DNA from: a virus
Lineage: Duplodnaviria; Heunggongvirae; Uroviricota; Caudoviricetes
Direction: 5' to 3' (one strand)
IMG/VR virus record: IMGVR_UViG_2713896798_000017
Length of the DNA stretch: 46,614 nucleotides
Every line of letters begins with the position of its first letter. Position 1 is the first letter of the stretch. Made by a program: the position numbers. Below are positions 24,001 through 27,000 of this stretch, in pieces.

Positions 24001-27000
24001 TCCTGAAAACTGGTAAAACCTAAGTGAATAAAAGTAAAAACCCCGTTTGTTGGCAGCAAGCGGGGTTTTGTGTTTTCTGACCTTGAGTAAGGCAAGGGAG
24101 AAATTATGGGTAGGGAGGTACTTTCCCTGTGAGGAAGTATAAAAGATTCTTTCTGAGGTTGTCCATTATGAAAGGCATTGAAGTGGAGACGCCAGCCAGT
24201 CTGGATTTAACAAGAGCGGCAGCTTTTGCCATTCGTATTGTGGCCATTGCTGTTCTGGTCTGGGCAATCCGTTGGTGGTGATATGAACCGTGTTCTGTGC
24301 GTGGTTATCATTGTCCTGCTGGTGGCCTGTGGTGCGCTTAGTCTGGGGCTGAATCATTACCGTGATCACGCCATCATCTACAAAGAGCAGCGCGATAAAA
24401 AAGCCAGTGAGCTGGAGCTGGCGAACGCGACAATTACTGATATGCAGATACGCCAGCGTGATGTCGCTGCACTTGATGCCAGATACTCGAGGGAATTAGC
24501 CGATGCGAGAGCTGAAAATGAAACTCTGCGTGCTGATGTTGCCGCTGGTCGTAAGCGCCTGCGGATCAACGCCACCTGCTCCGGTACCGTGCGTGAAGCC
24601 ACCGGCACCTCCGGCGTGGATAATGCAACCGGCCCCCGACTGGCAGACACCGCTGAACGGGATTATTTCATCCTCAGAGAACGGCTGATGGCAATGCAGA
24701 AGCAACTGGAAGGAGCACAGGAATATATCCGTACCCAGTGTATACCGTGATGTTTTGTTATGAAGGTGTTACTGGTAACGTTAAGGTAATTTAACAAAGA
24801 GTCAGTTCCGGACTTTATAGTGTGCTCAGTTCATGGCCAAAAACGATTTCTGTGATAAATATTTTGAATATTATTTACAGGTAAATGGAGTGGGGCACAT
24901 GGATAGAAATATTACAATAGAGAATGAAGTATATGCCCGTATTGTATGGGCAGAGAAGGCAAAAACACGGTAATTCCGTGTGTTGCCATGATACCTGATT
25001 GGCAGAATAGTTGTTTGGTTTTGAGTATATAGTCAGCGTTTTTTGTTCAGTAATTGCTCCCTCAAAAAATAATAAAATAAGGTGATTATTTTTGTTTATT
25101 ATTTAGTTTTTTTTGTGTGTTGTTTTATTGTTTTTGCGTGGTTTGTTTTTTATTGTTATTTCATTAAGGGAAGGTAAATTCAGGATGGCAGTCTGTAGAT
25201 AATCGGAGGTCACTTATGCTACATGATCACGTGGCAGAATGTCTGGAGAAAAAAGGACTGTACCGGAGAGCAGCTGAACGATGGGCAAAAGTGATGGTAC
25301 AGCTAAGTGATGACCAGAAAAGAAAAGTGGCGGCACAGAAACGAGCAGAGTGTTTGCGTAAGGCGCGCCGGACTCCGGTTTCACCGGTGAACCTGACCGA
25401 AATAAAACAAGCGGTCAACAGACTACATTCTGAGTTGGGAATGGGATTTGAAGAGCGGCGGGTATTCCGACGATATAAAGGGACAGGAGAACAGAATACG
25501 TCCGGAAACGCGCGGTCAAAAAAATGCTAAAAAATATCTGAGAGCGTTATTGCCTGTTACCATAAGAAAAAGCGACTTTAGTGGTCGCTTTTTGTGTCAT
25601 ATATAAGTCGTTTAAGTAAACCTGTCTGAACAGGTGCTCTGGTCGTGTTTGTCTTTGTTGGGTACAAATTGAGAATATTTTTCATTAATTAATCTTCTTC
25701 TGCAGGCTTCAATAACCCACGCTGAAAAATTACCTGAACCTTTCAGGTCAAGAGCGATGTTAATTTGTTCAATTATCTGGTTTGGAAATCGGATGTTGCG
25801 GGTTGTTGTTCTGCGGGTTCTGTTCTTTGATGACATAATGTTGCCCCGTATTCAGTGTTGCTGATTTGTATTATCTGAAGTTGCTTTTACGCTAATTTGA
25901 TGCAGATCAATTAATACGATACCTGCGTAATAATTGATTATTTCTCGTGGTTTGATGGCGTACACACATGTCGTGATAAACCTCATGTAGATGATAATTA
26001 TTATCATTTTCGTGGGTCCTTTCCGGCGATCCGACAGGTTACGGGGCGGCGACCTCGCGGGTTTTCGCTATTTATGAAAATTTTCCGGGATCCATGTCCG
26101 GTTTCTCTTCAAGTTAACTATATGAAAAATATAAAAACAGGTCTTCTGTGAACCGGACATGAACAAAAAACAGACATGTAAACCGGACATGACCGGTTTT
26201 GTTGTGATTGTGAGGTGAGAGTTTTTGCGAGGTGAGGAGTGGCTACGCAGACTGAAGTTGCCAGGCATTTAAGTCTGACCGATCGCCAGCTTCGCAGATT
26301 GCAGAAATTGCCGGGTGCCCCGATATCGAATAAGCGAGGGCAACTGGATCTGGATGCCTGGCGCGATTTTTACATATCGTATCTGAGGAGAAGTAAAAAC
26401 GATGTGCCTGATGGCGATAGCGAAGACGACTATGAGGAGAAATTGCTTATTGCCAGATGGGAACTGACAGCAGAACAGGCTGTTACACAGCAGTTAAAAA
26501 ATGAGGTGTCAAAAGGAAAACTTATTGACACCGGGTTCTGTATTTTTGCCCTCAGTAAGCTGGCAATGGCGTTATCCAGTACGCTTGATTCCATCCCTTT
26601 ATCCATGCAGCGACAGTTTCCTGATTTAACACCGCGCCATCTTGACCATCTGAAAACCCTTATTGCTAAGGGGGCAAATCAGTGTGCGCGGGCAGGGGAT
26701 AAATTACCGGATTTACTCGATGAATATATCAGAGCAACAACTGAATAATATGATGGCTGCCGTTTCGGTTGCGCTGCAGCCTCTGGTCAGGGTTGTACCA
26801 ATGACGGCAGTTGAATGGGCTGATCAAAATTATTATCTGCCTAAAGAATCTTCATATGGTGAGGGAGAATGGAAAACGCTGCCATTCCAGATCGCCATTA
26901 TGAACTGTATGGGTAACGACCAGGTTCGCACGGTTAACCTGATTAAATCTGCCCGTGTTGGCTATACAAAGATGTTGCTGGGGGTGGTCGGGTATTTTAT

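What the first reader, a model, noticed from the sequence alone, without database searches (positions are those of the whole stretch)
24760..25836. PerC-family (Pch-like) regulator and YlcI-like gene in an AT-rich segment before cos
At the position lambda uses for bor, this prophage carries a 104-aa PerC-like activator preceded by a long T-rich low-complexity upstream region, convergent with a YlcI/YnfO-like gene, with a shared bidirectional terminator. PerC/Pch homologs activate the LEE master regulator in EPEC/EHEC, so this cargo could link the prophage to host virulence regulation.
Basis: partly seen in the sequence, partly recalled or inferred. Interest (0 to 1): 0.55.

Follow-up and report, generated by a model that had tools for sequence, protein, structure and literature searches.

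The report
Prophage copy of virulence regulator PchA

Summary
ORF 25216-25530 (+) is a PerC-family protein (Pfam PF06069, 149 bits). It is 104/104 identical to PchA (ECs_1091) of E. coli O157:H7 Sakai, 99% to PchB, 98% to PchC, and only 31% and 40% to the LEE-inactive PchD and PchE. The surrounding DNA, including the T-rich upstream tract, differs from the Sakai Sp4 pchA locus by one base in about 990. The same gene at 99% identity or more is in 673 of 5426 complete E. coli genomes, typically in three copies. The LEE master regulator ler is in 697. Several of the prophage's closest relatives sit in ler-positive O103:H2-type strains. RefSeq already labels both genes.

Two corrections. The YlcI/DUF3950 gene (25612-25836, -) is not cargo: its first ~45 codons belong to the conserved lambda backbone next to cos, and lambda has an unannotated 64-codon homologue. 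The inserted module is about 24751-25700.

Published work on this exact protein shows that it activates the LEE1/ler promoter by relieving H-NS/StpA silencing.

One less ordinary point: the N-terminal three-helix core of the PerC family matches the ANR (AraC negative regulator) model, which hints at a mechanism based on protein-protein contacts. Overall: already known, low interest.

The parts
24283..24750 (+). Rz-type spanin gene (context: left border of the module; last lysis gene of the late operon)
   Evidence: Pfam Phage_lysis 164.9 bits and PHROG 13 Rz-like spanin. Coordinates taken from the RefSeq 'lysis protein' in the identical O103:H2 locus.
24833..24973 (+). 46-codon ORF of unknown function, conserved with the pch module
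   Evidence: PHROG 2157, E 2.7e-37, full length. The ORF stays open in the Sakai pchB and pchC loci despite several mostly non-synonymous changes. Not annotated in RefSeq.
24958..24987 (+). Stable hairpin overlapping the stop codon of the 46-codon ORF
   Evidence: RNA fold -16.7 kcal/mol, z -4.1, 0 of 200 shuffles as good. The scanner flags the minus-strand version as terminator-like.
25038..25165 (+). A-tract then T-rich tract upstream of pch (core 25083-25165): presumed promoter/regulatory and H-NS-prone region
   Evidence: 70% T, the extreme of the whole window; GC 28.5%. Identical to Sakai pchA upstream DNA. It is the most variable part between the pchA, pchB and pchC loci. No stable RNA structure (z +0.1). 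Promoter and H-NS roles are inferred, not shown.
25205..25209 (+). Shine-Dalgarno GGAGG, 6 nt before the ATG
   Evidence: Read directly from the sequence.
25216..25530 (+). pch gene, pchA allele (PerC family, group 1 / PerC1), 104 aa
   Evidence: Pfam PerC 149.3 bits. 104/104 identical to Sakai PchA. 99% to PchB, 98% to PchC, 31% to PchD, 40% to PchE. Bases G/G/C at the three allele-defining positions 16/172/183.
25567..25593 (.). Hairpin flanked by an A run and a T run: candidate bidirectional intrinsic terminator shared by pch and ylcI
   Evidence: Folds on both strands. 100% conserved in the Sakai pchA, pchB and pchC loci. Function not tested.
25612..25836 (-). YlcI/YnfO (DUF3950) gene, 74 aa. 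The N-terminal ~45 codons are lambda backbone; the C-terminal ~29 codons lie in the pch module
   Evidence: Pfam DUF3950 63.8 bits, NCBIfam YlcI_YnfO_N 34.5 bits. Lambda has a 64-codon homologue at 48109-48303 (-). Homology with lambda starts at about window 25700. C-termini vary across the family.
26044..26055 (+). cosN cohesive-end sequence GGGCGGCGACCT (context: right border)
   Evidence: Alignment with lambda's right end stops at 26043. The next 12 bases are lambda's left cohesive end (established knowledge of lambda).
26239..26748 (+). Small terminase subunit (Nu1-type C-terminal part, different N-terminal DNA-binding part) (context)
   Evidence: Pfam Phage_Nu1 matches residues 49-150 only; PHROG 57 and 1790.

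Best explanation
The window carries an Sp4-type lambdoid prophage. Its late region holds a roughly 950-bp accessory module (about 24751-25700) between the lysis gene Rz and the backbone gene ylcI next to cos. The module's one recognisable gene is the pchA allele of the group-1 Pch (PerC1) regulators.

Shown here: the protein is identical to Sakai PchA, its flanks including the upstream tract are essentially identical to the Sakai pchA locus, it occupies the same slot as pchB and pchC, and the gene is present in about as many complete genomes as ler.

Shown in the literature for this same protein: PchA, PchB or PchC raise transcription of the LEE1 operon and so of its product Ler. They do this by altering and reducing the H-NS/StpA (with Hha) silencing complex at the LEE1 promoter. 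Ler then turns on the rest of the type III secretion island. The effect depends on gene dosage across the several pch copies.

Inferred: in the lysogen, pch is transcribed from its own promoter in the AT-rich, T-rich upstream tract, which is the part that differs between pch copies and so probably sets copy-specific regulation. Because pch lies on the same strand as Q, the lysis genes and the terminase genes, Q-antiterminated late transcription should also read through it on prophage induction. This fits the published SOS-linked rise of pchC and pchB.
For: - Family: PerC Pfam hit, 149 bits.
- Identity: 104/104 to Sakai PchA. One mismatch in about 990 bases against the Sakai Sp4 pchA locus, upstream tract included.
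- Group: PchB 99%, PchC 98%, PchD 31%, PchE 40%. pchA-type bases at nt 16/172/183, which PMC5931665 names as the only differences among pchA, pchB and pchC.
- Position: pchB and pchC sit Rz -> pch -> small terminase, as here.
- Distribution: the gene is in 673 of 5426 complete genomes at 99% identity or more, median 3 copies; ler is in 697 of 5426. Six records are shared between the two 60-row samples. About 5 would be expected if all pch-positive genomes carry ler, and about 0.7 if the two were independent.
- Relatives: close relatives of this prophage (FWSEC0007, UTAK-10, CEC12044, WL1467, E105) are ler-positive.
- Function and mechanism from the literature: PMC4764244, PMC5931665 (all three group-1 proteins raise a ler::lacZ fusion at least 4-fold in K-12; PchD and PchE do not), PMC6265319, PMC4332760.
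- Same strand as Q (15432-15812, Pfam antitermQ), lysozyme and Rz.
Against:
- The sigma-70 scan finds no more promoter-like sites than shuffled sequence does (2 against 4.1 expected).
- The host of this window is unknown, so the presence of LEE is inferred from relatives only.
- An IS3-family element at 17398-18671 lies between Q and the lysis genes and could weaken late read-through.
- How Pch contacts DNA is unresolved. The predicted fold is TPR-like or ANR-like helices, with no recognisable DNA-binding motif.
Confidence: 0.9

Rival explanations
1. Same gene, different mechanism. Pch is not a sequence-reading DNA-binding activator. It is an enlarged ANR-type three-helix adaptor that acts through protein-protein contacts with H-NS-family proteins or with an AraC-family partner such as the prophage's own PsrA, as the ANR protein Aar does.
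For: - 36 of 47 PerC-family members hit the NCBIfam ANR model NF033650 at E 0.1 or better, always aligning PerC residues ~7-52 to model positions ~9-54.
- One Pfam-PerC member (P0227, 36% identical to PchA) passes the ANR curated cut-off, 33.8 against 32 bits.
- ANR proteins are three-helix proteins without DNA-binding ability that bind AggR and H-NS (PMC5570504).
- The prophage also encodes PsrA, an AraC-family regulator. The literature notes that psrA and psrB are associated with pch (PMC10877973).
- A PerC-family protein from a phage-inducible island represses LEE, and its authors noted ANR hits (PMC11773190).
Against: - PchA itself scores only 13.6 bits on the ANR model, below the cut-off.
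- It is 104 aa with two further helices and a basic tail, larger than ANR proteins (4-10 kDa, PMC10148876).
- ChIP places Pch on DNA at LEE1 whether or not H-NS/StpA are present, and the authors report no co-precipitation with H-NS (PMC4764244).
- Short helical repeats match many folds non-specifically.
Confidence: 0.2
2. The gene serves mainly the phage or a LEE-independent regulon (general relief of xenogeneic silencing, curli/biofilm or metabolic genes), and the LEE link is irrelevant in this particular host.
For: - Pch binds many chromosomal sites, including K-12 backbone regions, and activates some genes without Ler (PMC4764244).
- Group-1 pch affects csgA and biofilm (PMC6265319).
- EPEC PerC alters nitrate metabolism and the fim switch (PMC5293775).
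- The host of the window is not known. Identical copies occur in dog, chicken, pig and sewage isolates whose pathotype was not checked.
Against: - The genome counts for pch (673) and ler (697) nearly coincide, and the overlap between the two samples fits near-complete co-occurrence.
- The closest relatives of this prophage are in ler-positive STEC.
- The published biofilm effects of PchA depend on ler.
Confidence: 0.08
3. The locus is a silent remnant in a decaying prophage, intact by chance.
For: There is an IS3-family insertion in the prophage. Many EHEC prophages are defective; in Sakai Sp4 the pchA block is inverted and flanked by IS elements.
Against: - 687 of 688 records carry the gene at 99% identity or more, with an intact ORF and ribosome-binding site. 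This is not the pattern of a decaying gene.
- The identical protein is active experimentally (PMC5931665).
Confidence: 0.02

Closest known systems
PchA (ECs_1091, prophage Sp4) of E. coli O157:H7 Sakai; group-1 Pch / PerC1 (PchA, PchB, PchC)
   Same: Protein 104/104 identical. Coding bases at the three allele-defining positions are of pchA type. Upstream T-rich tract, terminator hairpin and 46-codon ORF are identical apart from one base. PsrA, encoded upstream in the same prophage, is also 195/195 identical to Sp4 ECs_1087.
   Different: In Sakai Sp4 the holin-endolysin-Rz-pchA block is inverted relative to Q, and an IS629 cuts the locus inside ylcI. Here the block lies in the same direction as Q and the terminase genes, and ylcI, cos and the small terminase gene are intact, as in Sakai pchB (Sp11) and pchC (Sp14).
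PerC of typical EPEC (perABC operon on the EAF plasmid)
   Same: Same Pfam family. Reported to be functionally interchangeable with PchABC for LEE1 activation (PMC5293775, PMC4332760).
   Different: Plasmid-borne PerC-family genes are only about 48-52% identical over about 85% of the protein. Which of these plasmid hits is the EPEC EAF-plasmid perC was not checked. PerC is about 89-90 aa without the C-terminal tail and lies in an operon with the AraC-type PerA rather than in a phage late region.
PchD (ECs_1388, SpLE1) and PchE (ECs_1588, Sp7)
   Same: PerC family. The same invariant core residues are kept (R17, R18, A19, R22, W23 and others).
   Different: 31% and 40% identity, 89-90 aa, different genomic settings. 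Reported to have little or no effect on ler; PchE represses curli and flagella (PMC6265319, PMC5931665).
ANR family (Aar, Rnr; NCBIfam NF033650)
   Same: Three-helix core. Model positions 9-54 align with PerC-family residues 7-52 in most members. Both families modulate H-NS-silenced virulence genes.
   Different: PchA is below the family cut-off (13.6 against 32 bits), is about 40 residues longer, activates rather than represses, and is reported at DNA by ChIP.
YlcI (DLP12) / YnfO (Qin) of E. coli K-12, and the unannotated lambda ORF at 48109-48303 (-)
   Same: DUF3950 N-terminal region nearly invariant (MS.KNRTRRTTTRNIRFPNQ.IEQINIAL..KGSGNFSAWVIEACRRRL). Same place, just upstream of cos, and same orientation against late transcription.
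   Different: The C-terminal ~25-30 residues are specific to the pch module. Function is unknown for every member.

Membership tests
PerC family (Pfam PF06069) | Scores above the Pfam gathering threshold over the whole model | tested here: met
   149.3 bits against 22.6; residues 1-89 on model positions 1-89 of 90.
PerC family (Pfam PF06069) | Conserved core residues of the family | tested here: met
   R17, A19 and W23 are invariant, and D4, A7, L10, E11, G14, R18, R22, V26, M27, R36, R43, C46 nearly invariant, in a 47-member alignment. All are present in the window protein.
Group-1 Pch (PchA/B/C, PerC1) | 104 aa and near-identity to Sakai PchA, PchB and PchC, clearly separate from PchD and PchE | tested here: met
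   100%, 99% and 98% against 31% and 40%.
Group-1 Pch (PchA/B/C, PerC1) | Located in a lambdoid prophage between the lysis genes and cos/terminase | tested here: met
   Window order is Rz, pch, ylcI, cosN, small terminase. Sakai pchB and pchC have the same order.
Group-1 Pch (PchA/B/C, PerC1) | Activates the LEE1/ler promoter | not testable with these tools
   Shown in the literature for the identical protein (PMC5931665, PMC4764244). Not tested for this locus.
Group-1 Pch (PchA/B/C, PerC1) | Host carries LEE (ler) | tested here: inconclusive
   The window has no host flank. pch is in 673 genomes and ler in 697 of 5426. The nearest relatives of the prophage are ler-positive.
YlcI/YnfO family (Pfam DUF3950 PF13132; NCBIfam NF041551) | Scores above the curated cut-offs | tested here: met
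   63.8 bits against 25 (Pfam); 34.5 against 30 (NCBIfam).
Ribbon-helix-helix DNA-binding proteins (for YlcI) | N-terminal strand followed by two helices, with fold similarity to known ribbon-helix-helix proteins | tested here: inconclusive
ANR family (NCBIfam NF033650) | Scores above the curated cut-off of 32 bits | tested here: not met
   PchA scores 13.6 bits, E 0.046. A PerC-family relative, P0227, reaches 33.8 bits, and 36 of 47 members hit at E 0.1 or better.
ANR family (NCBIfam NF033650) | Small (about 4-10 kDa) three-helix protein without a DNA-binding domain | tested here: inconclusive
   A three-helix core is predicted at residues 5-50, but the protein is 104 aa with two more helices and a basic tail.
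ANR family (NCBIfam NF033650) | Binds an AraC-family activator and/or H-NS directly | not testable with these tools
   Needs two-hybrid or pull-down experiments. The authors of PMC4764244 remark that they saw no co-precipitation with H-NS.
Intrinsic (bidirectional) terminator | GC-containing hairpin followed by a U run on each strand | tested here: met
   25567-25593 folds on both strands and is flanked by A5 and T5 runs. Actual termination was not tested.

The most novel reading that the evidence does not exclude
The PerC/Pch family may be an extended branch of the ANR (AraC negative regulator) family. On this reading, PchA relieves silencing at LEE1 through an ANR-type three-helix module that contacts H-NS-family proteins or an AraC-type partner, possibly the PsrA encoded 5.8 kb upstream in the same prophage, rather than by reading DNA itself. 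The prophage would then carry an activator/anti-activator pair that tunes type III secretion. The sequence link between the families is fairly well supported here. The mechanistic consequence is speculation. It concerns the whole family, not this locus in particular.
Probability: 0.2. Interest if true: 0.5.

Novelty: already known. Interest (0 to 1): 0.1.

Why it matters
It matters little as a discovery. pchA, pchB and pchC have been studied since 2004, and this copy is identical to the reference protein and already annotated in RefSeq.

It is useful as annotation. It marks the window as an Sp4-type prophage of an attaching-and-effacing E. coli lineage. That prophage carries both a type III secretion activator (PchA) and a repressor (PsrA).

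Three by-products may be worth a specialist's attention:
- The gene is almost invariant (99% identity or more in 687 of 688 records) and occurs in about as many genomes as ler.
- Here pch lies in the same direction as the late operon, unlike the inverted Sakai pchA. This predicts that this copy is induced with the prophage.
- The PerC core resembles the ANR family, which bears on the unresolved question of how Pch, a protein with no known DNA-binding motif, counteracts H-NS.

Tried and rejected
- Rfam, permissive thresholds, 24000-26500: only two chance-level hits, both outside the locus. Whole window at gathering thresholds: nothing in the locus. There is therefore no known RNA element in the T-rich leader, and that leader has no stable fold (z +0.1).
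- Sigma-70 promoter scan: no enrichment (2 sites against 4.1 expected), so no promoter call is made.
- Terminator scan: missed the 25567-25593 hairpin, which had to be folded directly.
- Sequenced phage isolates: no record covers 80% or more of 24700-26250. Only fragments and the lambda-like cos-proximal part matched. The arrangement is documented in prophages, not in isolated phages of that collection.
- PDB by sequence: no relative of PchA. For YlcI, one chance-level hit (E 1.6) to an unrelated enzyme.
- Porter et al. 2005 (PMC543544) is not held. A search for the mapped pchA promoter found nothing usable.
- The idea that ylcI is part of the cargo was rejected, because its 5' two-thirds and the DNA up to cosN are about 89% identical to lambda.
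- The idea that the gene could be a PchD- or PchE-type paralogue inactive on LEE was rejected on identity.
- The host's LEE status could not be tested directly. The window contains only prophage DNA, and no genome in the collection matches the whole window at 100%.
- HnrS, a prophage small RNA that represses Hha (PMC13502914), could not be looked for because its sequence is not given in the text that was read.
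Full report
**1. Observation**

- A 104-codon ORF at 25216-25530 (+), with GGAGG six bases before the ATG.
- A 74-codon ORF converging on it at 25612-25836 (-).
- Between their stop codons, the hairpin AAAAAGCGACT/GGTCGCTTTTT (25567-25593). It folds on both strands and has a U run after it in either direction.
- Upstream of the 104-codon ORF, an A-tract followed by a T-rich tract. Bases 25083-25165 are 70% T, the most extreme 83-mer on either strand of the window; the runner-up is 55%. GC falls to 28.5%.
- cosN (GGGCGGCGACCT) at 26044-26055, followed by a Nu1-type small terminase gene at 26239-26748.

It ends in a very stable hairpin (z -4.1).

**2. Identity of the 104-aa protein**

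It matches Pfam PerC (PF06069) at 149.3 bits, E 3.8e-44, over the whole model. I fetched all five pch genes of E. coli O157:H7 Sakai. Identities to the window protein are:
- PchA: 104/104.
- PchB: 99%, differing by V6L.
- PchC: 98%, differing by V6L and V58M.
- PchD: 31%. PchE: 40%.

At the three coding positions that a published RNA-seq study names as the only differences among pchA, pchB and pchC (nt 16, 172, 183; PMC5931665), the window has the pchA bases. About 990 bases of surrounding DNA, including the T-rich tract, the 46-codon ORF and the terminator hairpin, differ from the Sakai Sp4 pchA locus at a single base. RefSeq already annotates identical loci as 'PerC family transcriptional regulator | YlcI/YnfO family protein'.

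**3. Context**

The window is a lambdoid prophage running from the integrase gene (1-1020, -) to the tail-tip gene J.
- It has a Q antiterminator (15432-15812), lysozyme, Rz, pch, and terminase and head-tail genes, all on the + strand.
- Its AraC-family gene (18740-19453) contains a protein 195/195 identical to Sakai ECs_1087. That protein is PsrA, a repressor of type III secretion acting through GadE (PMC13502914, PMC10877973).

The element is therefore an Sp4-type prophage. Its best whole-length relatives are in O103:H2, O45:H2 and O121 STEC and allied strains: 99.9-100% over the first 25 kb and 98.5-99.3% over the rest.

In Sakai Sp4 the holin-endolysin-Rz-pchA block is inverted relative to Q, and IS629 cuts the locus inside ylcI. 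In the window the order follows the direction of late transcription and is intact, as in Sakai pchB (Sp11) and pchC (Sp14).

**4. What is cargo and what is backbone**

Megablast to lambda picks up only window 25702-26088, at 89% identity. A direct alignment shows homology starting near 25700 and running to lambda's last base at 26043. Lambda has an unannotated 64-codon ORF on the minus strand at 48109-48303. Its first ~50 residues are almost the same as those of the window's YlcI-like protein.

Across 28 family members the N-terminal 46 residues are nearly invariant, while the C-termini differ completely. So ylcI is a conserved cos-proximal backbone gene. The accessory module is about 24751-25700 (GC 38.8% against 51% for the window), and its right edge replaces the 3' end of ylcI. 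It stands where lambda has bor, lambdap78 and lambdap79 and where Sakai Sp8 has bor. 'The bor position' is therefore a fair description.

**5. Distribution and the LEE question**

- The 315-nt gene is present in 673 of 5426 complete E. coli genomes, at 99% identity or more in 687 of 688 records, with a median of 3 and up to 5 copies per genome.
- Sakai ler finds 697 of 5426 genomes, one copy each.
- Both listings are 60-row samples spread evenly down the ranking, and they share six records. About five would be expected if every pch-positive genome carried ler, and fewer than one if the two were independent. This is a rough argument, because the samples are not random.
- Close relatives of this prophage (FWSEC0007, UTAK-10, CEC12044, WL1467, E105) appear in the ler list.

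The host of the window itself cannot be identified, so its LEE status is inferred, not shown.

**6. How it works**

The following is published for this protein.
- PchA, PchB and PchC each raise a chromosomal ler::lacZ fusion at least 4-fold in K-12, while PchD and PchE do not (PMC5931665).
- They are needed for full LEE expression and adherence, and are interchangeable with EPEC PerC (PMC6265319, PMC5293775, PMC4332760).
- Pch activates LEE1 only when the promoter is silenced by H-NS, StpA and related proteins. It reduces and reshapes the H-NS complex there, and ChIP finds it at LEE1 whether or not H-NS/StpA are present (PMC4764244).

The following is my inference.
- The AT-rich upstream tract holds the lysogenic promoter and is the site of copy-specific control. 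It is the most divergent part among the pchA, pchB and pchC loci.
- Because pch lies in the path of Q-antiterminated late transcription, prophage induction should raise it. The published SOS-linked increases for pchC (about 8-fold) and pchB, and none for pchA, would fit the inverted orientation of pchA in Sakai-type Sp4. They predict that the copy in this window, which runs with the late operon, is inducible. An IS3-family element at 17398-18671 lies between Q and the lysis genes and might interfere.

**7. Fold and a family link**

Neither protein has a relative of known structure by sequence.
- **ANR link.** The NCBIfam ANR model (AraC negative regulators such as Aar) is hit by 36 of 47 PerC-family members, always in the same register. 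One member passes the curated cut-off, 33.8 against 32 bits. PchA itself scores only 13.6 bits. ANR proteins are three-helix proteins without DNA-binding ability that bind AraC-type activators and H-NS (PMC5570504). A 2025 paper on a PerC-like LEE repressor from a phage-inducible island noted ANR hits in passing (PMC11773190). This supports common ancestry of the cores and keeps a protein-contact mechanism open. It is not evidence that PchA works that way, and the ChIP and co-precipitation remarks in PMC4764244 argue against a simple H-NS-binding model.

**8. Verdict**

The feature is already known and already annotated, so interest is low. The most novel reading still open is the ANR-type mechanism for the PerC/Pch family. 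It is a family-wide question rather than a property of this locus.

Noticed in passing
L009:2710-2904 (-) = lambda NC_001416 48109-48303; window 25612-25836 (-): Phage lambda's reference record has no annotated gene here, yet it holds a 64-codon DUF3950/YlcI-family ORF just upstream of cos. It is nearly identical over its first ~50 residues to the window protein and to hundreds of database proteins. C-termini vary freely, as if the 3' end were a recombination boundary for accessory modules. The fold is possibly ribbon-helix-helix.
   Followed up: partly
window 24833-24973 (+) and hairpin 24958-24987: A 46-codon ORF matching PHROG 2157 over its full length travels with every pch copy examined. 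It stays open in the Sakai pchC locus despite about seven substitutions, mostly non-synonymous. It ends in a very stable hairpin (z -4.1). Whether it is a real small protein, a leader or a non-coding element is unknown. RefSeq does not annotate it.
   Followed up: partly
window 26085-26200: Downstream of cosN the sequence follows lambda only as far as TTTTCCGG and then diverges. Three copies of AACCGGACATG (26093-26104 inverted, 26151-26161, 26180-26191) lie before a small terminase gene whose N-terminal ~48 residues do not match the Pfam Nu1 model. This looks like a cosB with R sites of a different specificity from lambda's.
   Followed up: no
window 18740-19453 (+): An AraC-family gene whose last 195 codons (18866-19453) are 195/195 identical to Sakai PsrA (ECs_1087), a prophage-encoded repressor of type III secretion acting through GadE. 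One prophage thus carries both an activator (PchA) and a repressor (PsrA) of the same system. The ORF here could start 42 codons earlier than the Sakai annotation.
   Followed up: partly
window 17398-18671 (+): An IS3-family insertion sequence (HTH_Tnp_1 ORF followed by an rve integrase-core ORF, overlapping as for a programmed frameshift). It lies between the CAAX-protease-like gene downstream of Q and psrA, in the path of late transcription towards the lysis genes and pch.
   Followed up: partly
L001:22131-29827 (Sakai Sp4) compared with window 22000-26300: In Sakai Sp4 the holin-endolysin-Rz-pchA block is inverted relative to Q and bracketed by IS629 and ISEc8. In the window it runs in the same direction as Q. 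This may explain why published RNA-seq found pchB and pchC, but not pchA, raised after SOS induction.
   Followed up: partly
window 25216-25530; The pch coding sequence is almost invariant across E. coli: 99% identity or more in 687 of 688 records and 1877 copies. This is far tighter than the surrounding late region, which is 98.5-99.3% even among the best relatives. Identical copies also occur on 15 records labelled as plasmids, including plasmids of the two strains whose chromosomes best match this prophage (CP144927, CP144931).
   Followed up: no
window 19808-19998 (+), 13246-13420 (+), 4435-4486 (-), 19482-19728 (+): Rfam matches at gathering threshold elsewhere in the prophage: small RNA STnc100 (138 bits) just after a cluster of three tRNA genes, a sok antitoxin RNA of a hok/sok module, and DicF.
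   Followed up: no
P0003 (database protein, 138 aa): A database protein named 'PchABC-homolog' fuses a Terminase_2 N-terminal segment to PchA residues ~10-104. It is probably a recombination or assembly product at the pch-terminase junction.
   Followed up: no
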